DNA of 64,000 bases, taken from the IMG/VR virus record IMGVR_UViG_3300036761_001580, positions 5,198 through 69,197 of that record; one strand, given 5' to 3'. Made by a program: the position numbers and the translations under genes. Under the pieces are notes generated by a model that was not told the DNA's origin, did not search any database, and saw only the letters and a program-made list of their open reading frames with translations. Below, one piece after another: positions 33,593-59,067 of this stretch (position 1 is its first letter; each line of letters begins with the position of its first letter). The stretch is from a virus.

Positions 33593-33651
33593 GATACCTG
33601 AACAAACTTTTTTTGTGGAGCTTGGGAGGCCTGTCTTATATACTCCAGACC

Positions 33652-34377
33652 ATGTTCAAGAACAAGAGGCACAACTGGGACGAGATCGCTCTGGACCCGC
33701 GGCACCCAGACAACGAGGTCGCTCGGAGGTTCCTCGACCTCGTGATGAGCCCGAGGTACCGAACGCTGAAGGACCCCGACCCCAAGATGCGCGACTGGAA
33801 CGTCTACAGGGCCGGCTGGGGGGCGTTCGCCGAGGCCCAGGTCCTGGGCAAGCTCCAGCCCCGGGAGGCGGCCCAGCACGCCCAGTGCGAACTCAGCCAG
33901 CAGTTCTGCGAGGATCTCCAGGTCGAGCTGAACAAGACCCGCGAGGAGAACGACGAGCTGAAGAGGCAGGTGGCCCAGCTCAAGAAGGAGTCCTTGAAGG
34001 GCACCTTCCAGTGCGTCTGCTGCAAGGACACCTTCACCGAGGAGGACGTCCTCCCGTTGACCTGTGAGTTCTTCCCGACCGCCATCAACATCTCCATCGA
34101 CGACGTGGTCGTCAAGGTCACGGTCGATCTTCCTCTGGACAACACCGAGCTGAAGAAGCTGGAAGGTCGGGAAGACGAGAAGCCCTACATCTGCAAGGAG
34201 TGCTTCAGTGGGATCGCGGGGACCGCGGTCTCCAGGATCATCGAGCGAATACGCAACCGCCGGCACCTGGAGATGTGGGGGCGTGTCGAAGGTATCGCAC
34301 CTACCCGCGGGAGCACGGCCTTGCAGGTCCCCGTCCCCGCCAAGAAGACCAGGTTCCCGAAGATCAAGTTCGATTAG
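33652..34377 (+). CDS. Hypothetical coiled-coil/Cys-containing protein
   Basis: Start taken at MFKNKRHN. Lone rightward gene between leftward blocks. Confidence 0.4.
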   Translation: MFKNKRHNWDEIALDPRHPDNEVARRFLDLVMSPRYRTLKDPDPKMRDWNVYRAGWGAFAEAQVLGKLQPREAAQHAQCELSQQFCEDLQVELNKTREENDELKRQVAQLKKESLKGTFQCVCCKDTFTEEDVLPLTCEFFPTAINISIDDVVVKVTVDLPLDNTELKKLEGREDEKPYICKECFSGIAGTAVSRIIERIRNRRHLEMWGRVEGIAPTRGSTALQVPVPAKKTRFPKIKFD

Positions 34378-34730
34378 TAGTGCTCGGGCAGGCGAACCTT
34401 GATCGGGGGGAGCCCGTTGTTCTTCCACGCCAGGAGGGTACCGATGATGACCTCCTCCTTGCCGGCATCAGGAAACGCCGCTCGGGACTTGACCGCCAGG
34501 CCCACGAATAGCCTTCGCACCTTGACCCTCTTCCAGGCCCACCCGAGTAAAGAAAAGAGGTACATTCCGCAGCAGCCACCGACCACAGCCGCAGTGGCCC
34601 CGAAGAGGTTCACCAGGACGATACTGAGAATCGTGAAAAGGATCCAAGGCCACGTCAGGCTGGAGGGACTATCCAGCGGAAGCTCTATCCGCGCCGCCAG
34701 CTCCTCCGCGAAGGCGTCCAGGTCAACCAT
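34374..34730 (-). CDS. Small membrane protein
   Basis: 118-aa. Two hydrophobic helices (WILFTILSIVLVNLF / CGMYLFSLLGWAW). Confidence 0.35.
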   Translation of the reverse strand: MVDLDAFAEELAARIELPLDSPSSLTWPWILFTILSIVLVNLFGATAAVVGGCCGMYLFSLLGWAWKRVKVRRLFVGLAVKSRAAFPDAGKEEVIIGTLLAWKNNGLPPIKVRLPEHY

Positions 34731-35265
34731 CGACCCGCGCCTCCCCCGTCACGATCCTCCGGATCTGCATGGAAGAGACTTTGAACTTCTTCACGAGACT
34801 CGCGTAGGGCTCACCCTCACCTCGCCGTCTCCGAATCTCGGAAACCTGCTTCGAGGTGAGCTTGACATGTGGGTGGTGCTCCCCGTGAACAGTGTTCGCT
34901 CGCAGCTCTTCCAGAGGGGGCACCTTCGTGGGGTATTGGCTCTTCCCCAGAAGAGCGGACCGGACGGTCGACACCGTACAGTCGTACTTGGCCGCCAGCT
35001 CGGTGGCCGTCGCACCCTTGCGATAGAGCTTGCGCATCTCCCCAACGATCTTCCCGTCGAGCGCCTTGTTCCCCCGGGCCTCGGAAGCGAGGCACGCCTT
35101 CATCAGCTCGGGGGCGACGTCCTTGTAGGTGATGTACCGCACGGCTTGTCGAATCGCTTCTTTTGAGAACCCGTACTTGGCCGCGAGCGCGGTCTGGGTC
35201 TCTCCGGCGATGAACGCCTTCCGAATCTTCACCACAACTGCTTCCGACTGAATCATCTGGATCAT
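34723..35265 (-). CDS. Multi-HTH DNA-binding regulator
   Basis: Three HTH-like segments (ALAAKYGFSKEAIRQAV, ELAAKYDCTVSTVRSAL, ASLVKKFKVSSMQIRRIV). Promoter at 35292-35320. Confidence 0.45.
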   Translation of the reverse strand: MIQMIQSEAVVVKIRKAFIAGETQTALAAKYGFSKEAIRQAVRYITYKDVAPELMKACLASEARGNKALDGKIVGEMRKLYRKGATATELAAKYDCTVSTVRSALLGKSQYPTKVPPLEELRANTVHGEHHPHVKLTSKQVSEIRRRRGEGEPYASLVKKFKVSSMQIRRIVTGEARVDG

Positions 35266-35291
35266 TGAACCTCCTAGCTTTCCCTGCTGGT

Positions 35292-35320
35292 AATATAGTC
35301 ATGCCTGGAGGTGAAGTCAA
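35292..35320 (-). promoter_or_regulatory. Sigma70-like promoter TTGACT-N17-TATATT
   Basis: Minus reading ggtcTTGACTtcacctccaggcatgacTATATTacc. Confidence 0.5.
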
Positions 35321-35339
35321 GACCTGGAGGGAAAGATTG

Positions 35340-35564
35340 TCATCGAGGAGTGACCATCCATATGTAGGTGCGCTGCACCTCGGCCTTGCAGGTCGCGCAG
35401 ACGAAAGACTCCGTGATGTGGTTTCGGTCCACACTGTTCGCGATGCCCATGTCCGTGTGGAACGTGCCTTTGTAGTTGAGGGTGCCGTTGCAGCGATCCT
35501 TGCCGTGATATATCGGGCAAGTGATGGGGAGCACCGGGACGTGTTCTTCCGTCATGGCTCGCAC
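35340..35564 (-). CDS. Small Cys-rich protein
   Basis: 74-aa ORF. Confidence 0.3.
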   Translation of the reverse strand: MRAMTEEHVPVLPITCPIYHGKDRCNGTLNYKGTFHTDMGIANSVDRNHITESFVCATCKAEVQRTYIWMVTPR

Positions 35565-35827
35565 TCCTTCTTGCCGTACGTCCTCCAGTACACCCGCCGG
35601 TAGAGACTCAGAAGCGCATCAAGAGGACGGTTGTCGAAAATGGTAGGTCTCTGCTGGGACCTCTTCGAGGCCGGCGACATCTTCCTGGAGATCGCCAGGG
35701 CCAAGATCCCCATGTACCCGTAGGTGACGAGGAAGTCCTCGTAGGACTTGTCCCTCCAGCCCTGCTGCTCCTTGGTCTTCCCGTAGGAGTTGATGTGGGC
35801 CAGCTCTTTCCAGGTCCAGCGTATCAT
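35552..35827 (-). CDS. Hypothetical protein
   Basis: 91-aa ORF. Confidence 0.3.
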   Translation of the reverse strand: MIRWTWKELAHINSYGKTKEQQGWRDKSYEDFLVTYGYMGILALAISRKMSPASKRSQQRPTIFDNRPLDALLSLYRRVYWRTYGKKECEP

Positions 35828-36099
35828 TCAGTCTCCTCGACCATCAGCCGGGCAAAAGCCGGAGTCTTCTCCCCGACCCACGACCCGGTGACGTTGAAAT
35901 CCATGAACTCGACCGCTTCGTCGTAGTCCATCTTGTCACGCTCCATCAGGATCTTCACGCACTTGTCCCAGTCGTACAGCGCGACAGGACCGCGGTTGAA
36001 CTGGGTGGAGACCCCGACCAGAGCCTCCTCGAAGCCGTCTGCAAAGAGGATCTCCTCGTCGACTTCGGCGACCTGCTCTCGGATGGTCTGCTTGGGCAT
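35824..36099 (-). CDS. Hypothetical acidic protein
   Basis: 91-aa ORF downstream of promoter 36126-36153. Confidence 0.35.
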   Translation of the reverse strand: MPKQTIREQVAEVDEEILFADGFEEALVGVSTQFNRGPVALYDWDKCVKILMERDKMDYDEAVEFMDFNVTGSWVGEKTPAFARLMVEETE

Positions 36100-36125
36100 A
36101 CGTGCTCCCTTCGAACCTGCTAGAT

Positions 36126-36153
36126 AATATAGTGAGCCTCAGTAAGAAGTCAA
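36126..36153 (-). promoter_or_regulatory. Sigma70-like promoter TTGACT-N16-TATATT
   Basis: Minus reading cctcTTGACTtcttactgaggctcacTATATTatc. Confidence 0.45.
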
Positions 36154-36157
36154 GAGG

Positions 36158-36526
36158 CTACTTCTGCCGGAAATCGTACACCTTCGTGTAGTCAAAGAGG
36201 TCGGCCATCTCCTCGGGGTAGACCTTGGCCGGCAGGTAGTCGAGCCCTGCGGCCTGGGCGGCGAGCCACCGATGGTGCCCATCGACGATGAGGTACTCCC
36301 CACCCCCGTTGTAGAGGACGGAGATCTCAGGCATGCCTTCAGGCCAGCCCTCGGAGAGGCGCATCATCTCCGCCATGTCAGCAACTTCTCGGGGGTCCTT
36401 TGTGGCGAGGTCCTCGGTCGGAGACAGGCTATCGATGGGAACATCCTCGAACCAAGGCTCCACCTGAGCCTCGGAAATCTTGAGAAGGGATCGATCTGAC
36501 AGGGCCAAGCGCATGGTGCAAAACAT
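36158..36526 (-). CDS. ParB-like nuclease domain protein
   Basis: LIVDGHHRWLAAQAAGLDYLPAKVY matches the ParB/Srx-fold motif. Confidence 0.45.
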   Translation of the reverse strand: MFCTMRLALSDRSLLKISEAQVEPWFEDVPIDSLSPTEDLATKDPREVADMAEMMRLSEGWPEGMPEISVLYNGGGEYLIVDGHHRWLAAQAAGLDYLPAKVYPEEMADLFDYTKVYDFRQK

Positions 36527-36543
36527 AACACGAAAGTGTTATG
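36524..36543. promoter_or_regulatory. Perfect 8-bp inverted repeat CATAACAC-gaaa-GTGTTATG (operator candidate)
   Basis: In the divergent gap between the ParB-like gene and the rightward 36602/37023 gene pair. Followed by an extended -10 TGgTACACT. Confidence 0.5.
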
Positions 36544-36601
36544 AGATCTAAAAATGCAAACAGGCTGTGGTACACTGCGAGGCGTCACAGAGGAGGATAC
36601 C

Positions 36602-36946
36602 ATGATCACCGCGCAGGAAGCCCAGGCACAGGTTCTCGAAGTCATCGCAGCCCGGCTGGAGGGGGAGATCGACGAAGAGCCCAGCACCGCGGCCGTGAAG
36701 ACGAAGATCGAGACCGCCGTCACCACCGCGATCAGCGAGGAGCTTTTGTCGACCGCTCTGGACCTTACCGAGGTGGAAATCGGGCTCTTCAAAAGCGCCC
36801 CATTCAGCGAGTGGCTGACGGCCCTGAGCTACACCTTCTCGATCACTCCAGTCTTCAACGTAGCGGTAGACCCTCCGACAGCGAATGGAGGGGTCCTCAC
36901 GATCTCGTGGTACGGCTCGGCCTACGGCAGAAGCCCATCCGCGTAG
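36602..36946 (+). CDS. Small acidic hypothetical protein (anti-defence candidate)
   Basis: Start at MITAQEAQ with strong RBS GAGGAGG. Directly upstream of an HTH gene and downstream of a palindromic operator. Confidence 0.35.
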   Translation: MITAQEAQAQVLEVIAARLEGEIDEEPSTAAVKTKIETAVTTAISEELLSTALDLTEVEIGLFKSAPFSEWLTALSYTFSITPVFNVAVDPPTANGGVLTISWYGSAYGRSPSA

Positions 36947-37022
36947 TCTTAAAAACCGCTCCCCCAGTTTAAGAATTTATGGTATCAGTTTACAAGGGTT
37001 TGTAAACCAAAGGAGCGCATCA

Positions 37023-37265
37023 ATGGCGGCAAGGAAGATTCAGGGTCGCGTTTTGAACCGCAAGGAGGTCAAGATCGCGATGATTCGCCAGGACCTGACC
37101 CCCACGGACCTGGCGAAGGCCTTGTCGATCTCCAAGATGACGATGAACGCCCGCATCCAGGGACGAACGAGGTGCCGGATGCTGGAGGTGGAGAGGCTCG
37201 TCGAGGTCCTCAAGGTCGACTTCGATCTGATCACGATGCCGGAAGGGACCGAGCCCATCGAGTGA
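37023..37265 (+). CDS. Cro/C1-type (XRE) HTH transcriptional regulator
   Basis: 81-aa. IRQDLTPTDLAKALSISKMTMNARIQG is a canonical XRE helix-turn-helix. Confidence 0.55.
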   Translation: MAARKIQGRVLNRKEVKIAMIRQDLTPTDLAKALSISKMTMNARIQGRTRCRMLEVERLVEVLKVDFDLITMPEGTEPIE

Positions 37266-37274
37266 GGCTGAAGC

Positions 37275-37466
37275 CTATCCCTTCAACGAAGCTCTCACGT
37301 CCCAGGTCCAGGTCTTCGTTCGACAGTCGTAGCACGACACCACACGGCACCTGCATTCCGGGCAACAGTAGCGTCCGTCAGGCTTGCCTTCCATCATCAT
37401 GCGCTCTGCGTACGAAAACAGATGTCCGCAGTGGGGGCACTTGCGCTGATCTGCGTTCTTCTTCAT
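37275..37466 (-). CDS. Small zinc-finger protein
   Basis: 63-aa. CPHCGH...CCPECRC...CYDC. Confidence 0.35.
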   Translation of the reverse strand: MKKNADQRKCPHCGHLFSYAERMMMEGKPDGRYCCPECRCRVVSCYDCRTKTWTWDVRASLKG

Positions 37467-37472
37467 CTTAGG

Positions 37473-37500
37473 AGTGTAACCATCAATTTTGGTGTGTCAA
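37473..37500 (-). promoter_or_regulatory. Sigma70-like promoter TTGACA-N16-TACACT
   Basis: Minus reading cccTTGACAcaccaaaattgatggtTACACTcc. Confidence 0.45.
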
Positions 37501-37743
37501 GGGGTCGGGGAAAGCTCGGGTTGCACTTTCTGGCGGATCAGCTCTAGAGCTTCCCCCGGAAGGCTCTCGGGGTGCGGGTGCGTGAGCAGCTCTTCGAGCA
37601 TCCGCTTGGTCTCCAGGGAGAGCGGACGGTGCTTCAGGGCCCACTTCGCCTTCTTCTTGAGAGTCTGGATCTTCACTTTTTATGCTCCGTCCTGAAGCTG
37701 TCGTCGGGACTCCTAAATCGTCCCGCAGGTACTTTTTTTCCCA

Positions 37744-37935
37744 TTAATCCTCGTCGTCTTTTATGGGTACCCACTGCTTGTCCATCACGTACATGTAGAC
37801 CGCGTTGCAGACCACGCACCCGATCCGAGTGCCGTTCTCCGGGTTCGGCGGATGCGGGATCAGGTTCCCGCAGGAGCAGCCCACCCTGCCGGTCCAGTCC
37901 GGCTGAGGTGTGAGTGTGAAGAGGATTCCGTTCAC
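37744..37935 (-). CDS. Small Cys-rich protein
   Basis: 63-aa ORF. Confidence 0.3.
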   Translation of the reverse strand: MNGILFTLTPQPDWTGRVGCSCGNLIPHPPNPENGTRIGCVVCNAVYMYVMDKQWVPIKDDED

Positions 37936-38261
37936 TTCTTCTCCACGAAGTCTTCGAGGTTCCCGAGAGTCACCGGCTCCACCCAGGCGACAACACCGTT
38001 CTTTACGAGGTTCTCAACCTGAACGCCGGCCTCGGCCGCGGTCCAGAAGGCCCCCGGGTGGACCGGTCCGATTGCCATACCATGCTGGGTGTTCGTCAAG
38101 GACAGGACCACGTAGATCTTCTTCTGCTCACGCAGCGCCCTCTCGGCGTCGAGCGCCCGTTGCAGCCAGCAAAGCAAGCAGCAAGGTTCTCCGGAATACG
38201 GATCCTGAAAGAGATGAAGACCCTCCCTACGGCACTTCGAACAGAGCTTCTTCTTGCTCAT
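37932..38261 (-). CDS. Hypothetical Cys-containing protein
   Basis: Start taken at MSKKKLCSKC. The longer ORF-track N-terminus is Gly/Pro junk overlapping 38258..38470. Confidence 0.35.
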   Translation of the reverse strand: MSKKKLCSKCRREGLHLFQDPYSGEPCCLLCWLQRALDAERALREQKKIYVVLSLTNTQHGMAIGPVHPGAFWTAAEAGVQVENLVKNGVVAWVEPVTLGNLEDFVEKK

Positions 38262-38470
38262 GTCGCCAGCCCCGACAGCCACCTCTCGGCCACGGTGCGG
38301 TCGGTACCTTCGTACACGGTCTCTCCGTTGTGGGTGACCCGGTAGGTGCGGTCCCACGCCCGGACCCACAGCCGGACCATCACCTGGTGGTCCTGCTTCG
38401 AGAGGAACTGGTCCCAGTGGTCCAGAAAATGGCTTTCGAGGGCTTCCCAGAAAAGCGTTTGTCCCGACAT
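38258..38470 (-). CDS. Hypothetical protein
   Basis: 70-aa ORF immediately downstream of promoter 38493-38520. Confidence 0.35.
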   Translation of the reverse strand: MSGQTLFWEALESHFLDHWDQFLSKQDHQVMVRLWVRAWDRTYRVTHNGETVYEGTDRTVAERWLSGLAT

Positions 38471-38492
38471 TCTTCACCTCCTAGCCTGGATA

Positions 38493-38520
38493 CTATAGTC
38501 AGCCCGTACAGGAAGTCAAG
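38493..38520 (-). promoter_or_regulatory. Sigma70-like promoter TTGACT-N16-TATAGT
   Basis: Minus reading ccTTGACTtcctgtacgggctgacTATAGTatc. Confidence 0.5.
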
Positions 38521-38818
38521 GGGCCTTTTCGGGGGTCTTCGGAGGGACGCACCACTTCTGGTAGTTCTCATGTCCCGACCAATGGTGATCGCACCAGGAG
38601 TCCTTCCAAGGTCTCCAGCTCATTCTGATGAAGTCGCTAGAGTCGCTTCCCGAACACCCAACGGCGTATTTCCCATCGATGATGTAGATCTGCTCAGAGG
38701 ACGCCTCAATGACTTCGACCTTGCGCCCCGGATAGAGCTGTCGGGCGTTGTCGTCACAGTTAGCACGGTCCAGACAGCCAGAGCAGAGCACCGCCAGGGC
38801 AAACATCAGGTATCGCAT
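38516..38818 (-). CDS. Secreted lipoprotein (signal peptide + lipobox LCSGC)
   Basis: MRYLMFALAVLCSGC N-terminus. 100 aa, Cys/Trp-rich. Confidence 0.5.
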   Translation of the reverse strand: MRYLMFALAVLCSGCLDRANCDDNARQLYPGRKVEVIEASSEQIYIIDGKYAVGCSGSDSSDFIRMSWRPWKDSWCDHHWSGHENYQKWCVPPKTPEKAP

Positions 38819-39111
38819 TTTCCCTCCAGCCCTCTGAGGTCAACGGTGATGTGTTCCAAAGGCATCTTCAGAGAAGCCTTGTAGGTGACGGAGCCGTCCT
38901 CCAGGACCTTGATGTCAGTGATCTCGGAAAGGATGCTGTCATCTACGGGAGAGGTCACCCGCAGCTCATCGGGCGGCATCTCCGGATCGATAACGATTCT
39001 CACCTTGGCTCCGAAGAGGACTTTTTCGAGAACTCTCACCTCATGAGAGGCGTCCGGGCTCCGCATGGACCCGAAGTCCGAGAACAGCATGTCAGGGGTG
39101 TCTACCTTCAT
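38806..39111 (-). CDS. Hypothetical protein
   Basis: Start taken at MKVDTPDM. The upstream part of the ORF-track call is antisense junk. Confidence 0.3.
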   Translation of the reverse strand: MKVDTPDMLFSDFGSMRSPDASHEVRVLEKVLFGAKVRIVIDPEMPPDELRVTSPVDDSILSEITDIKVLEDGSVTYKASLKMPLEHITVDLRGLEGKCDT

Positions 39112-39119
39112 GCTTGGCC

Positions 39120-39365
39120 CTACTTGGGGAGAGCGAAGAAGTTCTGCGCCTGGAACCAGGAGATCAGAGTCGCGCTCGTCTCTTCGGGGGTGAACCCTGC
39201 TTCGGTCAAGGCCTTGCGCAGGCCCTTCAGAACCTCCGCCAGGTCTTCCATCGTGATCCCCTGGGTGAGCCACCCCGTCTTGGGATCGTAGGCTTTCAGA
39301 ACCAAACCCTTCTCCGCCTTGCTTGTCGTCATCTTGCGCTCCTTGGTCTTCGAGTTGTTTTTCAC
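39120..39365 (-). CDS. Hypothetical basic protein
   Basis: 81-aa ORF immediately downstream of promoter 39392-39420. Confidence 0.35.
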   Translation of the reverse strand: MKNNSKTKERKMTTSKAEKGLVLKAYDPKTGWLTQGITMEDLAEVLKGLRKALTEAGFTPEETSATLISWFQAQNFFALPK

Positions 39366-39391: not shown

Positions 39392-39420
39392 ACTATAAGC
39401 ATACCCCCTCAGGAAGTCAA
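39392..39420 (-). promoter_or_regulatory. Sigma70-like promoter TTGACT-N17-TATAGT (leftward arm of divergent pair)
   Basis: Minus reading gcccTTGACTtcctgagggggtatgctTATAGTgcc. Confidence 0.55.
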
Positions 39421-39446: not shown

Positions 39447-39475
39447 TTGACTTCCGCAGCAGGCATACTTATAGT
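39447..39475 (+). promoter_or_regulatory. Sigma70-like promoter TTGACT-N17-TATAGT (rightward arm of divergent pair)
   Basis: ggggtcTTGACTtccgcagcaggcatactTATAGTtgcc. Marks the switch to a ~17-kb rightward gene block. Confidence 0.55.
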
Positions 39476-42664: not shown

Positions 42665-42945
42665 GCGAAATGAATCGCAGCATCACCTTTCACTTCCCCG
42701 ACAAGAGCGCCGAGCCGATCTTGGAACTCAAGGAGTGCGGGGACATCCTAGTCCACGGCAAGGTCGTCGAGAACGACAAGGAGCTGGTGGACGGCCTGCG
42801 GGAATGGCTCGCCTTGGGTCGAACAGCGATGCAGGAACGCGCAGAAGCGGCCTGGCCTTGCGTGGAGGAGGTCCTCCACAGTGACATGCACACCAAGGGG
42901 AACTACAGCTTCTGCCCCTACTGCGGGAGGGACCTGAGAACATGA
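42661..42945 (+). CDS. Hypothetical protein with C-terminal CPYCG
   Basis: 94-aa ORF. Confidence 0.35.
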   Translation: MSEMNRSITFHFPDKSAEPILELKECGDILVHGKVVENDKELVDGLREWLALGRTAMQERAEAAWPCVEEVLHSDMHTKGNYSFCPYCGRDLRT

Positions 42946-43475
42946 GTTTCATCTCGATGGATGTCGAATCGGACGGGCCGTGCCCTGGTCTGTACTCGAT
43001 GGTGAGCTTCGGTGCCGTCGTCGTCGAGCCCGAGCTGAGCAGGACCTTCTACGGTCAGACGGCCCCGATCTCGGACCTGTGGATGCCGGAAGCCCTCTCG
43101 GTCAGCAGCACCACCCGGGAGATGCACCTGAAGTTCCGTCATCCTGAAAAAACGATGCAGGACTTCGAGACGTGGGTCAACGCCGTCTCCCCGAACAAGC
43201 CGGTGTTCATCTCCGACAACCCGGCGTTCGACTGGTCGTTCATCAACTACTACTTCCACAAGTTCCTCGGGAAGAACCCGTTCGGACACTCCGCCCGCAG
43301 GATCGGAGATCTGTACTGCGGGCTGATGAAGGACGCCGGCCGCAACCACGAGTGGAAGAAGCGCCTTCGGAAGACCGCGCACACGCACCATCCGGTCGAC
43401 GACGCCAAGGGCAACGCCGAGGCGATCCTGGAGATGCAGAAGATGGGCCTGAAGATCAACCTGGAGGGGAAGTAG
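42942..43475 (+). CDS. DEDDh-type 3'-5' exonuclease (DnaQ/RNase T-like)
   Basis: Exo I ISMDVESDG, Exo II FISDNPAFDWSF, Exo III HHPVDDAKGNAEA. Confidence 0.55.
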   Translation: MSFISMDVESDGPCPGLYSMVSFGAVVVEPELSRTFYGQTAPISDLWMPEALSVSSTTREMHLKFRHPEKTMQDFETWVNAVSPNKPVFISDNPAFDWSFINYYFHKFLGKNPFGHSARRIGDLYCGLMKDAGRNHEWKKRLRKTAHTHHPVDDAKGNAEAILEMQKMGLKINLEGK

Positions 43476-43770: not shown

Positions 43771-44121
43771 ATGGTACCTTACGGCGGAGGAACGCAAGGC
43801 GTCGGAACTCTCATGTTCTGCGGAGCCCTGTACGACTCGTGCTACGACACCTCGTCGGGAACGGTCATCATCCCCAAGAGACGCCGTGGGCCTGTATATG
43901 TCCGGTACACCTACCGGTCGAAGAGGCCCAAGCTGCGCTACCCGACCATCATCCACAAGCCCAGCGTTCCGCGCAGGGCCGGGCCGATGCCTCAGCCGAA
44001 GACCATCGAGGTCTCCCCGAAGTCGACCAGGAGGGTGACGCTCGTCGCGTGGACGCGAGGCCACGTCCCGAAGGACCTCAGCTTGCGGACACTCAAGATG
44101 CTCACCATCACGAGGAGGTAG
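43771..44121 (+). CDS. Hypothetical basic protein
   Basis: 116-aa ORF. Confidence 0.3.
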   Translation: MVPYGGGTQGVGTLMFCGALYDSCYDTSSGTVIIPKRRRGPVYVRYTYRSKRPKLRYPTIIHKPSVPRRAGPMPQPKTIEVSPKSTRRVTLVAWTRGHVPKDLSLRTLKMLTITRR

Positions 44122-44124
44122 CAG

Positions 44125-44381
44125 TGGCACGCATTCGAACAGTGACAGTTACCGGTCAAGGCACCGTCAGGAACGGCGAGTACGTGCACTCCACGAGACC
44201 CTTCGTGGAGCACCAGGCGAAGATCGACTTCGACAAGGTCCACCTCATCGAGGATGGGAAGATCTACATCCTGGTGAAGTTCTGCGAGACGGACAAGGGT
44301 GTCGAGACGGTCTTCGAGTGCCGGGAGACCAAGGAGCAGCTCGAAGCGCTGCTGAATGAGCCGGAGAAGGAGACGACCTGA
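44125..44381 (+). CDS. Hypothetical protein
   Basis: GTG start after AGGAGG (VARIRTVTVTGQG...). Confidence 0.3.
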
Positions 44382-44626: not shown

Positions 44627-44841
44627 CGGACAGAGTCTGCGCCCTGACGGTGATCCTGGACCATGACATGCGCACCGATGACGTGGACGACCTGGTGCGA
44701 GCGATCCGGCAGATGAGGAACGTCGCTAATGTCGTGCCGGAGATCTCGGAGCCCTTCGCGGAGGCGACTGCTCGGACGCGGCTCGCGCTGGAGCTGCAAG
44801 AGCAGTTCCACGGGATCATCGACAAGCTGTGGACGAGGTAA
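44623..44841 (+). CDS. Hypothetical protein
   Basis: 72-aa ORF. Confidence 0.3.
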   Translation: MTDRVCALTVILDHDMRTDDVDDLVRAIRQMRNVANVVPEISEPFAEATARTRLALELQEQFHGIIDKLWTR

Positions 44842-44843
44842 CG

Positions 44844-45314
44844 ATGGGGGACAAGAAAAAACTCGGCTTGGCGGGGATACCGTCCATTTGCGGCTGGTGC
44901 GATATGGACCCGGAGAAACGAAAGGAAGAGAACCGGCGCAAGCCTCCTTGCGACCACTACGAGAGCCGCCCAAACTCGCATCCGTTCCTGTACGAAGCGT
45001 TCTGTAAACACTGTGAGCATCCTCCAAAGTGCCACCCCGGGTACACCGGATTCGGGTCTCTCGGTCCGAAGGTCAGCGAAGTGCTCAAACCGAAGAAGCC
45101 GAGCCTGAACCGCCGGCCGAACGCCCTCTCGAAGCAGAAAGCTCTCGCGCTGGAGTGGTCCCACGAACTCAGCGAGATCTACAAGAAGCTGAACACCGCC
45201 AAGGTGGCGCTGAGGAAGATCGCCTCGTGCAAGAGCGTTGTCGAGGGAGACGTCGTCGACATCGCGCAGAAGGCTCTGAAGCAGATCGAACCCTCTACCG
45301 GGGAGCCTGAGTGA
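44844..45314 (+). CDS. Hypothetical Cys/His-rich protein
   Basis: Start MGDKKKLG. Immediately upstream of rtcB. Confidence 0.35.
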   Translation: MGDKKKLGLAGIPSICGWCDMDPEKRKEENRRKPPCDHYESRPNSHPFLYEAFCKHCEHPPKCHPGYTGFGSLGPKVSEVLKPKKPSLNRRPNALSKQKALALEWSHELSEIYKKLNTAKVALRKIASCKSVVEGDVVDIAQKALKQIEPSTGEPE

Positions 45315-46633
45315 TGTTCACGATCCAAGGAAAGTATACAACAGCCACGGTGTTCGCGGATCAGGTGGAGGCCAGCTGCATCGCGCAGATCACAAGTATG
45401 GTCAACAACGCGGCCTTCACGGAGCCTGTGGTCATCATGCCGGACACGCATGCAGGCGCGGGATCGGTGATCGGTTTCACGATGCCTCTGGGCGGCGCGA
45501 TCATCCCAAACATCGTGGGTGTCGACATCGGCTGCGGCGTGCTGGCAGCGCGAGTTCCCTGGCGCACGGACATCAGCCTGGAGAAGCTCGACCGCGAGAT
45601 CCGAGCGCGAGTACCCTTCGCGCACGAGGTACGGTCTGACAACCACCACGAGCTGTCAGAGGGGGATCTGTTCTACGACGAGACGCACGCCATGCTGACC
45701 GTGACGCGCCGCAAGCTGAACGCGCGGTTCGCAGGAGACGGGTTCCAGGCGCTGGACTGGGGGGCATCCCATAGGGGATTCGAGGAGCTGTGCCAGCGGG
45801 TTGGCATGAAGTACGGGCGGGCGCAGCGGTCCATCGGATCCCTGGGCGGCGGCAACCACTTCATCGAGATCGGTCGCGGTGTGTTGCGCGATCATGCCTG
45901 GGTGCTGGTTCACAGTGGGTCGCGGCAGCTTGGTGAGAAGATCTGCAAGTACCACCAGCGGGTGGCGGCCGAGAAGCTCCTGAACTTCAAAACCGGTGAG
46001 TACCAATCCGAGATCGAGGTGATCCGGAGCACGGCACCGCGGAACGAGATCGATGCACGAGTCAAGGCGTACAAGACTGCGCAGCGAGCACTGGTGGCGA
46101 CACCAAGCGGACTGGAGCCGCTGCACGGCGAGGACCTGTTCTCCTACGTGGAGGACATGGTCTTTGCGCAATCGTATGCGGCGCAGAATCGCAGCGCGAT
46201 CATGACCGAGGTGCTGGAGGCAATCGGCATGGGCCCGGGTGTGAACGTGATGGGGATCGACACGGTGCACAACTACATTGATCCGGTGGACCTGGTCATC
46301 CGCAAGGGTGCGGTGGCGGCACGCGAAGGCATGTCACTGGTCATCCCGTTCAACATGCGGGACGGCAGCTGGTACTGCCGCGGGAAGGGCAACCCGGACT
46401 GGAACTGCTCGGCACCGCACGGGGCGGGCCGCCTTATGAGCCGATCCCAGGCCAAGCGCGAACTGGACCCAGCCGCGGCGCGAGCGAGCATGAAGGGGAT
46501 CTACACGAGCTGCATCCCTCTGGACGAGGCTCCTGCGGCGTACAAGGACGCAACGGCGATCCGAACAGCTATCGGGCCGACGGTCGAGGTGATCGAGGAG
46601 ATCCACCCGATCCTCAACCTGAAGGCGGAGTAA
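45311..46633 (+). CDS. rtcB: RNA 3'-phosphate/5'-OH ligase RtcB
   Basis: MPDTHAGAG, GGGNHFIEIG, HNYID and CSAPHGAGR motifs match RtcB active-site signatures over a 440-aa protein. Confidence 0.8.
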   Translation: MMFTIQGKYTTATVFADQVEASCIAQITSMVNNAAFTEPVVIMPDTHAGAGSVIGFTMPLGGAIIPNIVGVDIGCGVLAARVPWRTDISLEKLDREIRARVPFAHEVRSDNHHELSEGDLFYDETHAMLTVTRRKLNARFAGDGFQALDWGASHRGFEELCQRVGMKYGRAQRSIGSLGGGNHFIEIGRGVLRDHAWVLVHSGSRQLGEKICKYHQRVAAEKLLNFKTGEYQSEIEVIRSTAPRNEIDARVKAYKTAQRALVATPSGLEPLHGEDLFSYVEDMVFAQSYAAQNRSAIMTEVLEAIGMGPGVNVMGIDTVHNYIDPVDLVIRKGAVAAREGMSLVIPFNMRDGSWYCRGKGNPDWNCSAPHGAGRLMSRSQAKRELDPAAARASMKGIYTSCIPLDEAPAAYKDATAIRTAIGPTVEVIEEIHPILNLKAE

Positions 46634-47881: not shown

Positions 47882-48411
47882 TGGCCTGGAGGAACTGCGA
47901 GCAGTACAGCCTGGAGAAGTGCGGTCCGGGGAAGCCCTGCCAGTTCAATGGACCTGTCAACTACACCTGCTCCGGCAGAACCCTGCCGGAGCCCGAGAGG
48001 AGGGACATCATGCCCAAGAAGAAGAAGACCAAGAAGAAGCCCGTCGAGAAGAAGGCGCGGAAGACGCCCGTCGATCAGCTGGACAACGTCCGGGCGGTAT
48101 CGTCGGCACAGGAACTGCCGGAGGAGCCCGCCATCAGCCTCGTGGGGAGGGTTGAGGAGCTGCTGACGGACATCAACCAGCTCCATGAGCAGGTAAACGA
48201 ACAAGAACAGCGGGTCGCCACCCTGAAGGACCGGCTGCGGGGCATCAAGTTCGACAACGGCAAGCTCTCCGTCGAGTTCGGCTGGAACGAGGGCCCCGAG
48301 ACCCCCGGAGTTCGTGTCGGGATCTTCTCGGGGCGTGAGTTCGCCTACATCGAGGCCTCCCTGGAAGAGCTGGGAGAGATGGTCGAGTGGTGCAAGGGAC
48401 AGCTGGGCTGA
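47881..48411 (+). CDS. Hypothetical protein with basic KKKKTKKKP linker
   Basis: 176-aa ORF. Confidence 0.4.
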   Translation: MAWRNCEQYSLEKCGPGKPCQFNGPVNYTCSGRTLPEPERRDIMPKKKKTKKKPVEKKARKTPVDQLDNVRAVSSAQELPEEPAISLVGRVEELLTDINQLHEQVNEQEQRVATLKDRLRGIKFDNGKLSVEFGWNEGPETPGVRVGIFSGREFAYIEASLEELGEMVEWCKGQLG

Positions 48412-48418
48412 GAGCCTC

Positions 48419-48447
48419 TTGACTTTCCCATCGACAGTGTCTATATA
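48419..48447 (+). promoter_or_regulatory. Sigma70-like promoter TTGACT-N17-TATATA
   Basis: cctcTTGACTttcccatcgacagtgtcTATATAggt. Confidence 0.55.
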
Positions 48448-48453
48448 GGTAAG

Positions 48454-49911: not shown

Positions 49912-49939
49912 TTGACTTTCCCCCAGGCATGACTATATA
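49912..49939 (+). promoter_or_regulatory. Sigma70-like promoter TTGACT-N16-TATATA
   Basis: cctcTTGACTttcccccaggcatgacTATATAgtg. Confidence 0.55.
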
Positions 49940-49969
49940 GTGCAGGATGACAACTCGAAAGGGGCTGTG

Positions 49970-55612: not shown

Positions 55613-56689
55613 ATGTCAAAAAGATTCCCGATCATGAGCGGCCCGTCGATCCCTTGGGAGATGATCTCCCCCTACGAGGGACAGGCCCTGACGAACCACC
55701 AGCAGTCCCTGGAGGAGCTGGCCCGCCGCGGGGGTCTCGACCCGGCCGAGGCCCTGGCCGTGCTCTCCTGCCTGAAATGGAGAGACTCTCCGTGGAGTAA
55801 TCCGGTGGTCCGCAACTCGCCGGCCCCTCTGGAGGAGCTGGAGCGGCGCAGAGTCGAGTTCGAAGGTCCCCGAGAGAGGATCGCCCAGCTCGAAGCAGCC
55901 CTCCGAGACAAGGACCTGGCGCTGGCGGAGACCGGAGCGCTGGTGCTGAACCACGAGGGGCACCTCGCACGACTCGACGCCGAGCTGGAGAAGCTGACCG
56001 AACGCTTCGACGACTCCGAGGCCGAGAACGGGAACCTTGGCGAGGAGTGCGGCAGGCTGGAGGAGCAGAACGAGCGCCTCCTCAAGTACGAGGCCCAGTG
56101 CAACGTCCTCTCTCAGAAGTTCTGCAAGCACGCGATCTCGGAAGGAGTCCCCGCGGCGATTGCACACATCAAGGATCTCGAATCCAGGAATAACGCGCAG
56201 GCAGAAGAGATCGTGCGGTCGAGGAAGGAAATCACCAAGTTCCGGGATCGGGACGAGGAGCTGGGTGAGCAGGTCTTGATGGATTGGCGCGGACTGCGCG
56301 CCAAGCTGGCCGCGGCGCAGGAGGAGGCCATCCAAGGTCGTCACGCCGAACGGTGGGCGAGCGCTGCGATGGTCTACCTCGCCGGCAAGATCTCGACGCC
56401 CGAGAAGATCTCCCCCGAGTGGATACAGGAAGCGCTCAAGCACGCCGAGACGCTCCTCACGGGGCTGGACGGGGAGGCATGCGAGCAGTGGAGGGCGGCG
56501 CAGGCAGCGTTCCTCGCCGCCGCCAGCGAGGAGGCCGTGCAGGCTTTCGCGGACAAGGTTCAGAAGTTCTGCGTCGAGAGGCACGGGTTCGGGGCTGTTT
56601 ACGAATTCGTCAGCGATCTCATGTCGGGATCTTTAAACCCTCCCGCTGGTATTGCAACTTCATCACCTTCACGCCGTCGGGATCCTTAA
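55613..56689 (+). CDS. Coiled-coil protein whose 3' end runs into the first CRISPR repeats
   Basis: 358-aa. Last ~22 codons (DLMSGSLNPPAGIATSSPSRRRDP) are encoded by repeat 1, spacer 1 and repeat 2. Confidence 0.4.
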   Translation: MSKRFPIMSGPSIPWEMISPYEGQALTNHQQSLEELARRGGLDPAEALAVLSCLKWRDSPWSNPVVRNSPAPLEELERRRVEFEGPRERIAQLEAALRDKDLALAETGALVLNHEGHLARLDAELEKLTERFDDSEAENGNLGEECGRLEEQNERLLKYEAQCNVLSQKFCKHAISEGVPAAIAHIKDLESRNNAQAEEIVRSRKEITKFRDRDEELGEQVLMDWRGLRAKLAAAQEEAIQGRHAERWASAAMVYLAGKISTPEKISPEWIQEALKHAETLLTGLDGEACEQWRAAQAAFLAAASEEAVQAFADKVQKFCVERHGFGAVYEFVSDLMSGSLNPPAGIATSSPSRRRDP

Positions 56690-59067
56690 ACCGCCCCGCT
56701 GGTGCTGCAACCCTCTTCCCCCGGCACCTCATCGATCTCGGTCATCTTGTCGGGACTCCTAAGCCGTCCCGCAGGCACTGCAACAGCTGAAGAGCCCACC
56801 TCGTGTCAACGTCGTGTGTCGGGATTCCTAAGCCTTCCCGCAGGCATTGCAACTTGAGAATTGAAGAGGGTGTGATCCTGTTGTATCCCATGTCGGGATT
56901 CCTAAGCCTTCCCGCAGGCATTGCGACTCAACCGCCGAAGATAGGTTCTCCCTAACACGCCTCAGGTCGGGACTCCTAAGCCTTCCCGCAGGCACTGCAA
57001 CAGACCACTTCATGCCACGCACCACTGGCGGAGTCGGGAACTCTAAACCATCCCGCAGGCATTGAGATAGTCTTTCTGGCACAGTAAACGGAGGGTCCAT
57101 GCGGTCGGGGCTTCTAGTCACCCCGCAGGCATTGCAACTCCATCGGCAGAGATGACCACGACGAGTACAGGTGTCGGGAATCCTAAGACTTCCCGCTGGA
57201 ACTGCAACGAATACCTTCCTGCGGTCGTGACGCGAATCTGCCTTGTCGGGACTCCTAAACCGTCCCGCAGGTACTGCAATTTCCTCTAGGGACGCGCCTG
57301 CGGTCAGGCCATCTCGTGTCGGGAGTCCTAAACCCTCCCGCAGGCACTGCGACTGACACCTCGTCGGAGTACGACTACGCTCTCATTGCAGTCGGGACTT
57401 CTAAGCCCTCCCGCGGGCATTGCGGTTCACGAGGCACGTCGGGACTCCTAAGCCTTCCCGCAGGCGTTATGACCATGGCAAAGTGCGTGGTCGTCGGGAC
57501 TCCTAAGCCATCCCGCAGGCATTGAAACGATCTCGATGACGTGGCTCTGGAGGGCCGGGCGGCTGTCGGGACCTTTAAGCCGTCCCGCAGGCGTTAAAAC
57601 GCAGCCGACTCAGACAGCTTACACCCGCTGACTTTCCCGTCGAGACTCCTAAACCGTCCCGCAGGTACTGCGACTGGAACATCTGACACCCTTCACTGTA
57701 TGAGGCCGCGGTCGGGACTTCTAAGCCGTCCCGCAGGCGTTGAAACTCACCAGACCGTGCTCTCCGGGTCGAGATTCCTAAGCCATCCCGCAGGCGTTGA
57801 AACGGGGCTACCGTAGGGTCACCCGTTGGGGGGGGGGACCCCGTCGAGACTCCTAAGCCGTCTCGCAGGCGTTGAAACAGCTGATGGCCACTCCTTGCGC
57901 ACCCATCACCCCCCGTCGAGACTCCTAAGCCGTCTCGCAGGCGTTGAAACATCACCTCCACGCGCCGAGACGCTCAGCCGCTTCGCGGTCGAGACTCCTA
58001 AGCCGTCTCGCAGGCGTTGAAACTTCGTCGGAAAAGCCGAATTCGACCAGCCTCTTAACGTCGAGACTCCTAAGCCGTCTCGCAGGCGTTGAAACAGATC
58101 TGTGGGCCGGTCCAATTTCACAGCGTATGCGTCGTCGAGAGTCCTAAGCCCTCCCGCAGGCACTGCGACTAGTACTCCGCCACGGTCGAGACTCCTAAGC
58201 CGCCTCGCAGGCGTTGAAACAACTTCTTGGCCTTCACCTTCTCGCCGATCAGGTTGAGGTCGAGACTCCTAAGCCGTCTCGCAGGCGTTGAAACAATGGA
58301 TCGCTACGGGATCTCTTTCCCAGAGGCGGCCGTCGAGACTCCTAAGCCGTCTCGCAGGCGTTGAAACTTCATGGTTGATCAGTGGAAAAAATGGGAAAAG
58401 ATCTGGTCGAGACTCCTAAGCCGTCCCGCAGGAACTGCACCATCTTGGACCTCTTCGCGGAGTTCAGGTGCACCACGTCGGGGATCTTAAGCCTCCCCGC
58501 AGGCACTGTGACTAGGCCCTAAGGTACGCCTCGTCGGGAGTCCTAAACCCTCCCGCGGGCACTGCAACGAGTTGGGGGCCGGCGATGACCAAGGCCAAGG
58601 TCGGGAGTCCTTAAACCCTCCCGCGGGCACTGCGACACAGCATCTGCTACCCGGTCAAGCTCTCACCCGAGTGGTCGGGAATCCTAAGCCTTCCCGCAGG
58701 AACTGCACCTCCTCATGGCGAGGGGGCGAGCATGGCGGCGCGATGTCGGGAGTCTTACGCCCTCCCGCAGGCACTGCGACCTGATCTCTCTCATCCCATG
58801 GTCCAGATGCTCCAGGGGTCGGGAGTCATAACCCTCCCGCGGGCACTGCGACAGAGAATTCCGACGATGGTCCAACACTACTCGACATGTCGGGAGTCCT
58901 AAGCTCTCCCCGCAGGCACTGCAACGACGACGGGAAGGTCTTCCCGGCGCGGAACTCCTCGTTGGGATCCTTAGGCCATCCCACAGGCACTGCGACAACC
59001 CGCTACAGGGGGTCGGTCTGCTCAGGGAGAAGTTGGGATCCTTAGGCCATCCCACAGGCACTGCAAC
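56623..59067. CRISPR. CRISPR array, 36 repeats of 35-37 bp, 35 spacers (11-39 bp), four repeat families
   Basis: Family A (R19-22, R25, R26 identical) GTCGAGACTCCTAAGCCGTCTCGCAGGCGTTGAAAC. Family B GTCGGGACTCCTAAGCCGTCCCGCAGGCACTGCAAC. Family C GTCGGGAGTCCTAAACCCTCCCGCAGGCACTGCGAC. Family D (R35, R36) GTTGGGATCCTTAGGCCATCCCACAGGCACTGCGAC. Spacers are unique. The 6-bp stem covaries (CGAGAC/GTCTCG, CGGGAC/GTCCCG, CGGGAG/CTCCCG, TGGGAT/ATCCCA). Likely transcribed on the minus strand with the adjacent cas12-like gene, but orientation is unproven. Confidence 0.9.

What the first reader, a model, noticed from the sequence alone, without database searches (positions are those of the whole stretch)
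45311..46633. Phage-encoded RtcB RNA ligase with an adjacent DEDDh exonuclease: likely tRNA/RNA repair against host anticodon nucleases
Read from sequence: RtcB hallmarks (GGGNHFIE, HNYI, SAPHGAGR) are unambiguous. A DEDDh 3'-5' exonuclease lies 2 kb upstream at 42942..43475.

Established: RtcB seals 2',3'-cyclic-phosphate/5'-OH breaks, the products of PrrC/RloC/colicin-type anticodon nucleases. Phages encode RNA repair (T4 Pnk/Rnl) to defeat such abortive-infection systems.

Inference: this is a counter-defence module. No archease or Pnk partner was recognised nearby.
Basis: partly seen in the sequence, partly recalled or inferred. Interest (0 to 1): 0.55.

Follow-up and report, generated by a model that had tools for sequence, protein, structure and literature searches.

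The report
Jumbo-phage RtcB RNA ligase gene
A large bacterial virus carries an intact copy of RtcB, an enzyme that rejoins cut RNA, probably to repair RNAs that the host cuts in self-defence; this is already known from hundreds of phages, and the nearby exonuclease is at most a loosely linked helper.

Summary
ORF 45314..46633 (+; alternative GTG start at 45311) is a full-length RtcB (Pfam PF01139, E 9e-61; phage family phrog_1075, E 7e-115). All metal-binding, GTP-binding and nucleophile residues are present, and the gene is under purifying selection.

The window is phage DNA. It has a large terminase whose nearest matches are jumbo phages, and tail and virion proteins. An identical RtcB is listed on a contig of up to 205 kb.

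ORF 42942..43475 is an intact DEDDh exonuclease. It belongs to the Cap18/Rv2179c-like family.

Phage RtcB is well known: 674 phage records carry a homologue, and a jumbo-phage review already reads it as RNA repair. No archease, Pnkp, other RNA ligase, CCA-adding enzyme or tRNA gene was found in the 64 kb.

The "module" claim is only partly supported. The exonuclease and RtcB probably share one ~9 kb transcription unit. However, six ORFs separate them, the interval varies between near-identical phages, and no other RtcB-carrying phage locus examined has the exonuclease nearby.

One new lead: in 13 of the 80 nearest bacterial homologues (all Bacteroidota), the exonuclease sits directly upstream of a different RtcB clade, in Ro60–RlaP RNA-repair operons.

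Verdict: an ordinary new member of a known kind. The counter-defence role is plausible but untested.

The parts
45314..46633 (+). RtcB 3'-phosphate RNA ligase gene (439 aa; alternative GTG start at 45311 gives 440 aa)
   Evidence: Pfam PF01139 at E 9.3e-61, near full length. phrog_1075 'tRNA splicing ligase' at E 6.6e-115. Catalytic residues D44, H46, D71, C74, N181, H182, H200, H319 and H369 (439-aa numbering) are invariant across 21 homologues. dN/dS is 0.08-0.31 against relatives.
42942..43475 (+). DEDDh 3'-5' exonuclease of the Cap18 / Rv2179c-like family (177 aa). It is a possible but unproven accessory to RtcB.
   Evidence: PDB 7T2S (E. coli Cap18) at E 5e-30. PADLOC PDLC00753 at E 5.4e-39. 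Pfam PF16473 at E 7e-8. D7, E9, D97, H149 and D154 are invariant. It is 58-67% identical to a bacterial family found in many phyla.
44829..45314 (+). Cys-rich ORF of unknown function (157-161 aa). Its stop codon overlaps the RtcB ATG, so the two are probably translationally coupled.
   Evidence: ORF list; TGATG overlap. No Pfam, PHROG, PADLOC, NCBIfam or PDB match. It is found only in the near-identical phages L001-L003, not next to RtcB in more distant relatives.
39447..39475 (+). Promoter-like site (TTGACT-N17-TATAGT) at the head of the plus-strand gene block that holds both the exonuclease and RtcB
   Evidence: Consensus scan. The extended motif TTGACTTCC...TATAGT occurs 5 times in the window against 0 expected. 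This is a consensus match only.
48405..48448 (+). Hairpin followed by a near-consensus copy of the same promoter motif. This is the probable end of the transcription unit that contains the exonuclease and RtcB.
   Evidence: Hairpin GGGCTGAGAGCCT. Sequence TTGACTTTCCCATCGACAGTGTCTATATAGG read directly.

Best explanation
The gene encodes a catalytically competent, stand-alone RtcB ligase carried by a jumbo phage. RtcB uses GTP and Mn2+. It guanylylates its active-site histidine (H369/H370 here), transfers GMP to an RNA 3'-phosphate (after opening a 2',3'-cyclic phosphate), and lets the 5'-OH end attack, which restores a normal 3'-5' bond.

The phage most likely expresses it from a host-type promoter, in a long operon of small accessory genes. 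Its probable job is to reseal host or phage RNAs, most probably tRNAs, cut by metal-independent ribonucleases that the host deploys during infection (anticodon nucleases, toxin RNases, CRISPR-associated RNases).

Shown here: identity, intactness, purifying selection, phage context, and an RNA-repair context in relatives. Inferred: the ligase chemistry (from the family), the substrate, and the counter-defence purpose.

The exonuclease 1.8 kb upstream is a separate gene in the same probable transcript. It may trim RNA 3' ends for the repair pathway, but its link to RtcB in this phage is loose.
For: - Family and active site: Pfam E 9e-61 and phrog_1075 E 7e-115. Alignment to P. horikoshii RtcB puts D72, C75, N182/H183, H201 and H370 (440-aa numbering) on D95, C98, N202/H203, H234 and H404. 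These residues, H319/N320, the NHFxE glutamate and the AYK lysine are invariant in 21 homologues.
- Selection: dN/dS is 0.08-0.31 against relatives at 73-84% identity. The protein is 100% conserved in three independent metagenome contigs.
- Phage context: a terminase (phrog_17415, E 1e-38) and tail and virion proteins. The terminase's nearest matches are 195-260 kb jumbo phages. A relative is an IMG/VR viral contig.
- Precedent: 674 phage records carry RtcB homologues, and a jumbo-phage review assigns RtcB to RNA repair (PMC7824862).
- Relatives' RtcB neighbourhoods hold a CCA-adding enzyme, a PF09414 RNA ligase and tRNA-Val; Thg1-like proteins, an RNA ligase, Ro60 and NAD-salvage genes; and tRNA arrays ending about 400 bp upstream of RtcB.
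- Probable co-transcription from a sigma-70-like promoter motif.
Against: - No experiment. No defence nuclease or host is known for this phage.
- The 64 kb window has no tRNA gene, no Rfam match and no other RNA-repair enzyme, so the repair context is borrowed from relatives.
- RtcB's neighbours are not conserved even among relatives at 73-84% identity. The gene behaves as a mobile accessory cassette whose substrate could differ between phages.
- The literature searches found no demonstrated case of a phage RtcB defeating a defence system.
- The promoter assignment is a consensus match only.
Confidence: 0.6

Rival explanations
1. The exonuclease and RtcB are a two-enzyme 'trim and seal' repair module. 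The DEDDh enzyme removes damaged or extra 3' nucleotides, and RtcB then joins the ends. This would mirror the bacterial Ro60-RlaP-Exo-RtcB operons.
For: - In 13 of the 80 nearest bacterial homologues of the exonuclease, an RtcB gene lies directly downstream on the same strand, and 9 of the 13 have a gap of 210 nt or less.
- RtcB is the commonest neighbour that is not explained by lineage-specific synteny.
- The same operons carry two RlaP nucleotidyltransferases, Ro60/TROVE, a WYL regulator and a Band-7 protein.
- In the window both genes lie in one probable transcription unit.
- The 735 kb phage LR756501 carries both genes, 20 kb apart.
Against: - All 13 linked loci are Bacteroidota. Their RtcB is a different clade (about 490 aa, 25-28% identical to the phage RtcB).
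- The phage exonuclease does not nest inside the RtcB-linked subclade.
- In the phage the genes are 1.84 kb apart with six ORFs between them. In near-identical L001 they are 4.3 kb apart, with a TnpB element inserted.
- None of the 29 other RtcB loci compared, viral or phage-like, has the exonuclease within 10 kb.
- A DEDDh product end is 3'-OH, which RtcB cannot use directly (established RtcB chemistry).
Confidence: 0.25
2. The exonuclease has nothing to do with RtcB. It is a Cap18-type 2'-5' phosphodiesterase that the phage uses to destroy the linear 2'-5' intermediate of host cGAS-like (CBASS) enzymes, or other 2'-5'-linked signals. It would then be a separate counter-defence gene.
For: - It is a full-length match to the CBASS exonuclease model (PADLOC E 5e-39) and to E. 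coli Cap18 (PDB 7T2S, E 5e-30; identified as Cap18 in PMC11981726).
- The preprint 10.1101/2025.03.04.641389 reports that Cap18/Exo enzymes cleave 2'-5' dinucleotide intermediates, show no DNA or RNA exonuclease activity, and suppress cGAMP synthesis.
- The catalytic residues and the NPFG segment shared with Cap18 are conserved.
- The gene is rare in phages: 6 of 50,697 records, all 460 kb or larger.
Against: - It is only 41% identical to E. coli Cap18, which sits on a long separate branch. It is 58-67% identical to a bacterial clade that largely follows organism phylogeny and lies in non-CBASS contexts.
- The preprint describes the CBASS enzymes as a distinct clade.
Confidence: 0.1
3. RtcB acts on something other than tRNA. 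Candidates are 16S/23S rRNA or mRNA cut by host toxins or by CRISPR-associated collateral RNases, or a phage RNA that needs joining or circularising.
For: - The chemistry is the same.
- Bacterial RtcB2-PrfH repairs colicin-E3-cut 16S rRNA (PMC9304027 and PMC13166195, titles and abstracts).
- The window has no tRNA genes.
- RtcB neighbourhoods in relatives are heterogeneous.
Against: - The recurring neighbours in relatives are tRNA-specific: a CCA-adding enzyme, Thg1-like proteins and tRNA genes.
- No PrfH-like release factor was found in the window (Pfam).
- The NCBIfam PrfH-linked RtcB model scores far below its cut-off (80 bits against 272).
Confidence: 0.15

Closest known systems
Phage RtcB 'tRNA splicing ligase' family (PHROG 1075). 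Examples: Bacillus phage vB_BmeM-Goe8, haloviruses HCTV-1 and HCTV-5, Bacteroides LoVEphage, many mycobacteriophages.
   Same: Full-length match (E 7e-115). Same length class (about 400-460 aa), same catalytic residues, a stand-alone gene in a phage accessory region. 674 phage records hold a homologue.
   Different: The best identity to any deposited phage is under 40%. Its own clade (73-100% identity) is known only from metagenome contigs.
Cellular RtcB (E. coli RtcBA operon; P. horikoshii RtcB, PDB 1UC2/4DWQ)
   Same: Same Pfam family. Metal ligands, GTP-binding residues and the nucleophilic His are conserved.
   Different: No RtcA, RtcR or archease nearby. It scores far below the NCBIfam equivalog cut-offs (113 bits against 407), so it is not an orthologue of the E. 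coli enzyme.
T4 Pnkp + Rnl1 'heal and seal' tRNA repair against the PrrC anticodon nuclease
   Same: Same proposed purpose: a phage reverses host cleavage of tRNA.
   Different: Different enzymes and chemistry. RtcB seals 3'-P/5'-OH ends directly, without a kinase-phosphatase. No Pnkp or Rnl was found in the window. Relatives at 48-73% RtcB identity do carry PF09414 ligases.
Bacteroidota WYL-Ro60-RlaP-Exo-RtcB RNA-repair operons (for example Chitinophagaceae MAG GCA_039925965.1, locus L033)
   Same: The same exonuclease family (62-67% identity) on the same strand as, and upstream of, an RtcB.
   Different: Their RtcB belongs to another clade (25-28% identity). The bacterial genes are usually adjacent (gap of 210 nt or less), whereas the phage genes are 1.84 kb apart. 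The window has no Ro60, RlaP or WYL gene.
CBASS Cap18 / Exo (E. coli upec-117 Cap18, PDB 7T2S)
   Same: The exonuclease has the same fold family and DEDDh residues, and matches over its full length.
   Different: 41% identity with Cap18 on a separate branch. There is no CBASS operon around it. The reported 2'-5' phosphodiesterase activity has not been tested for this clade.

Membership tests
RtcB (Pfam PF01139) | Profile match above the curated threshold over the whole domain | tested here: met
   206.8 bits against a cut-off of 27, covering model positions 2-425 of 426.
RtcB (Pfam PF01139) | Metal ligands Asp/Cys/His/His/His (P. horikoshii D95, C98, H203, H234, H329) | tested here: met
   D72, C75, H183 and H201 (440-aa numbering) are aligned directly to D95, C98, H203 and H234. 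H320 in the HNY motif is assigned from the family alignment. All five are invariant in 21 homologues.
RtcB (Pfam PF01139) | Nucleophilic histidine that becomes guanylylated (P. horikoshii H404, in the HGAGR motif) | tested here: met
   H370 in SAPHGAGR aligns to H404 and is invariant.
RtcB (Pfam PF01139) | GTP- and Mn2+-dependent joining of 3'-P or 2',3'-cyclic-P ends to 5'-OH RNA ends | not testable with these tools
   This needs a biochemical assay.
Phage RtcB (PHROG 1075) | Profile match, and encoded on a phage genome | tested here: met
   E 6.6e-115. The same window holds terminase, tail and virion proteins.
Archease-assisted RtcB system | An archease gene (PF01951) near RtcB | tested here: not met
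   No archease match among about 90 window ORFs. The flanking ORFs tested have no PDB sequence match.
T4-type Pnkp/Rnl repair | Polynucleotide kinase-phosphatase plus an ATP-dependent RNA ligase | tested here: not met
   Neither family was found in the window. tblastn with a relative's RNA ligase and CCA-adding enzyme was negative. Only about 31% of the roughly 205 kb genome is in the window.
DEDDh exonuclease, Cap18 / Rv2179c-like | Profile match and the five DEDDh catalytic residues | tested here: met
   PF16473 at 32.7 bits (cut-off 27). PADLOC PDLC00753 at E 5e-39. D7, E9, D97, H149 and D154 are invariant.
CBASS Cap18 / Exo | Encoded in a CBASS operon next to a CD-NTase | tested here: not met
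   No CD-NTase or CBASS effector family appears among the window ORFs scanned with Pfam or the ten scanned with PADLOC. None recurs among the neighbours of the 80 nearest bacterial homologues.
CBASS Cap18 / Exo | Selective 2'-5' phosphodiesterase activity | not testable with these tools
   The activity is reported for three CBASS enzymes in preprint 10.1101/2025.03.04.641389. The window protein is 41% identical to one of them.
Bacteroidota Ro60-RlaP-Exo-RtcB operon | Exonuclease immediately upstream of RtcB, with RlaP, Ro60 and a WYL regulator in the locus | tested here: not met
   The gap is 1.84 kb with six ORFs. No RlaP, TROVE or WYL match in the window. The RtcB belongs to a different clade.

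The most novel reading that the evidence does not exclude
The Cap18-like exonuclease is a real working partner of RtcB. A widely conserved bacterial exonuclease family would then act as an end-processing step in RtcB repair. It has about 6,000 close homologues, is operonic with RtcB, RlaP and Ro60 in Bacteroidota, and has never been characterised. It might remove 2'-5'-linked or surplus 3' nucleotides. This jumbo phage would have assembled a minimal exonuclease-plus-RtcB version of that pathway for counter-defence.
Probability: 0.2. Interest if true: 0.55.

Novelty: new member of a known kind. Interest (0 to 1): 0.3.

Why it matters
This adds one more, rather divergent, example of a phage RNA-repair ligase. 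It shows that in this jumbo-phage lineage RtcB moves as a single-gene cassette among changing sets of tRNA-repair and NAD-salvage genes. That fits the view that such genes are swapped in response to local host defences.

The more useful by-product is the exonuclease lead. The family is strongly conserved (58-67% identity across bacterial phyla). Its only studied relatives are CBASS regulators with 2'-5' specificity. It turns up next to RtcB in Bacteroidota repair operons and, loosely, in this phage. Testing its substrate would give a function to a very large uncharacterised family, and would show whether RtcB repair has an unrecognised trimming or proofreading step.

Tried and rejected
- Nucleotide similarity of 40-50 kb of the window to deposited phages: no match.
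- tRNA and Rfam scans of the window: nothing. A link to phage tRNAs or introns cannot be shown here.
- Archease, Pnkp, RtcA, Rnl, CCA-adding enzyme, Thg1 and Ro60 among about 90 window ORFs with Pfam: none. tblastn with relatives' CCA-adding enzyme and RNA ligase: none.
- PHROG, PADLOC, NCBIfam and PDB sequence searches on the ORFs flanking RtcB: no matches.
- Test of whether the translationally coupled upstream ORF, or the downstream ORFs, are conserved RtcB partners: no similarity to the ORFs flanking RtcB in relatives. Rejected.
- Exact-sequence look-up of the 440-aa GTG-start protein failed. The 439-aa ATG-start protein is the one on record.
- Conserved exonuclease-RtcB synteny in phages: rejected.
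- Literature search for an experimentally shown anti-defence role of a phage RtcB: none found. Burroughs and Aravind 2016 (PMC5062991), which may describe the bacterial operons, is not held.
- CRISPR spacers against the window and all fetched loci: no matches.
- Structure prediction was not run. Sequence evidence for both enzymes was already decisive, and the small ORFs have too few homologues for a useful model.
Full report

Yes. The window has a 440-codon ORF at 45311..46633 on the + strand. Gene callers on identical metagenome copies start it at the ATG at 45314, giving 439 aa (P0001, 100% identical). That ATG follows a GGAG and overlaps the stop codon of the upstream ORF (TGATG), so 45314 is the more likely start.

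The protein matches the Pfam RtcB model at E 9.3e-61 over model positions 2-425 of 426. It matches the phage family phrog_1075, 'tRNA splicing ligase', at E 6.6e-115.

The HMMER alignment to P. horikoshii RtcB (PDB 1UC2/4DWQ) gives these equivalences, in 440-aa numbering:

| Window residue | P. horikoshii residue |
|---|---|
| D72 | D95 |
| C75 | C98 |
| N182/H183 | N202/H203 |
| H201 | H234 |
| H370 | H404 |

In an alignment of 21 homologues at 41-79% identity, these residues are invariant. So are the HN of the HNY motif, the glutamate of NHFxE and the lysine of AYK.

dN/dS against relatives at 73-84% protein identity is 0.08-0.31. Three independent contigs carry the identical protein with only synonymous change. 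The gene is under purifying selection.

**2. Is it a phage?**

Yes.
- The window holds a 753-aa large terminase (phrog_17415, E 1.4e-38), a tail protein and a virion structural protein, and a phage cement protein domain.
- The terminase's best match is the 197 kb 'Virus Rctr197k' (36% identity over 85% of the query). The next matches are jumbo phages of 195-260 kb, such as PaBG.
- The identical RtcB is listed on a contig of up to 205,564 bp. I could not read that contig directly.
- A relative with 73% RtcB identity is an IMG/VR viral contig.

The window has no nucleotide-level match to any deposited phage.

**3. The exonuclease**

ORF 42942..43475 (177 aa) is an intact DEDDh enzyme. D7, E9, D97, H149 and D154 are invariant in 15 homologues.

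It is more specific than 'DEDDh'. It matches E. coli Cap18, the CBASS-associated exonuclease (PDB 7T2S, E 5e-30; identified as Cap18 in PMC11981726). It also matches the PADLOC CBASS 'Exonuclease' model (E 5.4e-39). Its Pfam Rv2179c-like match is weaker (E 7e-8).

A preprint (10.1101/2025.03.04.641389) reports three things about Cap18/Exo enzymes:
- They show no DNA or RNA exonuclease activity.
- They selectively hydrolyse the 2'-5'-linked linear intermediate of cGAS-like enzymes.
- They form a distinct clade of DEDDh nucleases.

The window protein is only 41% identical to E. coli Cap18. It is 58-67% identical to about 6,000 database proteins. These come from Bacteroidota, Myxococcota, Verrucomicrobiota, Planctomycetota, Acidobacteriota and Cyanobacteria. 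A rough neighbour-joining tree of this group largely follows organism phylogeny, and the phage sequence sits inside it.

In phages the gene is rare. It occurs in 6 of 50,697 records, all genomes of 460-735 kb.

**4. Are the exonuclease and RtcB a module?**

*Evidence for:*
- Both genes lie on the + strand in a tightly packed block.
- A phage-specific promoter-like motif (TTGACTTCC...TATAGT) occurs five times in the window against none expected. Copies are at 39447 (+) and 49912 (+), with no copy between them. A hairpin plus a near-consensus copy sits at 48405-48448.
- Both genes therefore probably belong to one ~9 kb transcript of about 19 genes. This rests on consensus matches only.

*Evidence against:*
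- Six small ORFs separate them.
- In the near-identical phage contig L001 (RtcB 100% identical), the interval is 4.3 kb. It contains an inserted TnpB/IS605 element and further ORFs, while about 1.1 kb just upstream of the exonuclease in the window is missing there.
- None of the other 29 RtcB loci compared has a homologue of the exonuclease within 10 kb. These include eight loci (L004-L007, L028-L030) whose RtcB is 73-84% identical.
- More generally, those relatives share no gene with the window other than RtcB.
- The translationally coupled upstream ORF and the downstream ORFs are orphans found only in L001-L003.

RtcB behaves as a single-gene cassette in a highly mosaic accessory region.

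**5. An unexpected point in favour of a link**

One bacterial homologue of the exonuclease lies 22 nt upstream of a 493-aa RtcB (P0223, 64% identical, a Chitinophagaceae MAG). The same locus holds Ro60/TROVE and a WYL-WCX regulator.

I fetched the 80 nearest genomic homologues.
- 13 have RtcB directly downstream on the same strand, and 9 of the 13 have a gap of 210 nt or less.
- RtcB is the most frequent neighbour that is not lineage-specific synteny.
- These operons also carry two RlaP nucleotidyltransferases (PF10127, 'RNA repair pathway'), Ro60 and a Band-7 protein.
- A gene that occurs once in a 5 Mb genome would lie within 8 kb by chance about 0.3% of the time (my estimate), so 16% is a real association.

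There are four caveats:
- All 13 loci are Bacteroidota.
- Their RtcB is a different clade (25-28% identical to the phage RtcB).
- The phage exonuclease does not nest in the RtcB-linked subclade.
- A DEDDh product is a 3'-OH end, which RtcB cannot seal directly (established RtcB chemistry).

I could not check whether this operon type is already described. Burroughs and Aravind 2016 is not held, and no held paper mentions both Rv2179c and RtcB.

**6. What does RtcB do here?**

The window itself gives little help. It has no tRNA gene and no Rfam match. About 90 ORFs scanned with Pfam showed no archease, Pnkp, RtcA, Rnl, CCA-adding enzyme, Thg1 or Ro60.

Relatives are more informative:

| Relative | RtcB identity to window | Genes near RtcB |
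|---|---|---|
| L004/L005 | 73% | Class II CCA-adding enzyme with HD domain (2.6 kb downstream), tRNA-Val, PF09414 RNA ligase (all within 10 kb) |
| L115 (198 kb contig) | 48% | Thg1-like protein (about 0.2 kb upstream), RNA ligase, four NAD-salvage enzymes, Ro60 (all within 9 kb) |
| L116 | 48% | Thg1-like protein (1.2 kb downstream) |
| Several more distant viral contigs | 30-39% | tRNA genes within 10 kb upstream; in four (L015, L016, L019, L020) an array ends about 400 bp from RtcB |
| L030 | 84% | NAPRTase and NAD synthase |

These recurring neighbours act on tRNA ends or counter NAD depletion. This fits the accepted view that phage RtcB is part of RNA repair against host attacks on the translation apparatus (PMC7824862).

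The most likely mechanism is therefore direct resealing of 2',3'-cyclic-phosphate/5'-OH breaks, most probably in tRNA, made by host defence ribonucleases. The gene would be expressed from a host-type promoter.

Identity, intactness, selection and context are shown. The chemistry is inferred from the family. The substrate and purpose are inferred.

**7. Comparison with what is known, and novelty**

Phage RtcB is common. 674 phage records have a homologue, including 221 mycobacteriophages and many Bacillus, Listeria and halovirus genomes. It has its own PHROG.

This copy is divergent: under 40% identical to any deposited phage, and below the NCBIfam equivalog cut-offs. Even so, it passes every sequence test for the family. 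It is a new member of a known kind.

I found no published experiment showing that a phage RtcB defeats a defence system. The counter-defence role remains an inference for the whole family, not only for this gene.

**8. Verdict**

Counter-defence is plausible and conventional but untested. The 'module' with the exonuclease is weak in phages, although bacterial operons offer some support.

Overall interest is low to moderate. The only element that goes beyond routine annotation is the exonuclease family's dual association, with CBASS and with RtcB repair operons.

Noticed in passing
window 56616..59080 (array) and 59109..60941 (-): A phage-borne CRISPR array of about 32-36 copies of a 36-nt repeat (for example GTCGGGACTCCTAAGCCGTCCCGCAGGCACTGCAAC), with a period of 72-74 nt. 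The repeats are unusually degenerate, with at least two repeat subtypes. Several spacers are short (11-21 nt). Next to the array is a 610-aa type V effector-like protein (PADLOC Cas12u1 E 1e-97 and Cas12f E 4e-91, both near full length). No spacer matches the window or any fetched locus. A copy of the promoter motif lies just upstream of the cas12-like gene at 60995..61025 (-).
   Followed up: partly
window 38492..38519 (-), 39392..39420 (-), 39447..39475 (+), 49912..49941 (+), 60995..61025 (-); variant at 48419..48448 (+): A conserved promoter-like motif, TTGACTTCC-N-TATAGT, occurs five times against zero expected. It includes a divergent pair at about 39.4 kb that separates the minus-strand block, which holds the terminase, tail and virion genes, from the plus-strand accessory block.
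   Followed up: partly
L001 6361..7545 (-), compared with window 44121..44125: A TnpB/IS605 element (OrfB_IS605 plus Cas12f1-like TNB domain) and extra small ORFs are inserted between the exonuclease and RtcB in a phage contig whose RtcB is 100% identical. The interval is an insertion/deletion hot spot.
   Followed up: partly
L004 11320..12171 and L005 10795..11654: Directly downstream of the intact RtcB gene in relatives at 73% identity lies a displaced remnant of an RtcB 3' end (36 codons). It is more like the window's RtcB (83%) than the local one (66%). This suggests that an insertion or recombination event brought its own replacement 3' end, as homing-endonuclease cassettes do. No endonuclease domain was detected in the + strand ORF.
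   Followed up: partly
L033/L036 and L035, L037, L045, L047, L049, L058 (Bacteroidota genomes): A recurrent bacterial operon: WYL regulator, Ro60/TROVE, Band-7, two RlaP nucleotidyltransferases, the Cap18-like exonuclease, and a ~490-aa RtcB with an N-terminal extension. The exonuclease component appears not to have been characterised.
   Followed up: partly
L115 1..21374 (198 kb phage-like contig) and L030: Relatives carry an RNA-repair and NAD-salvage island around RtcB. It holds a Thg1-like protein, a PF09414 RNA ligase, endonuclease VII, a radical SAM protein, NAPRTase, NAD synthase, a nicotinamidase-like protein, an NMNAT-like protein and Ro60.
   Followed up: no
window, among the 54 ORFs of alignment A3 (1..39291 and 61057..63991); exact ORFs not identified: Pfam matches to thymidylate kinase (E 2e-31), a KTSC domain, an AAA_21/AAA_23/SMC_N-type ATPase, a staphylococcal-nuclease homologue, a Mor activator, and sigma-70 region 4 and resolvase-type HTH proteins. 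The batch output does not say which ORF gave which match.
   Followed up: no
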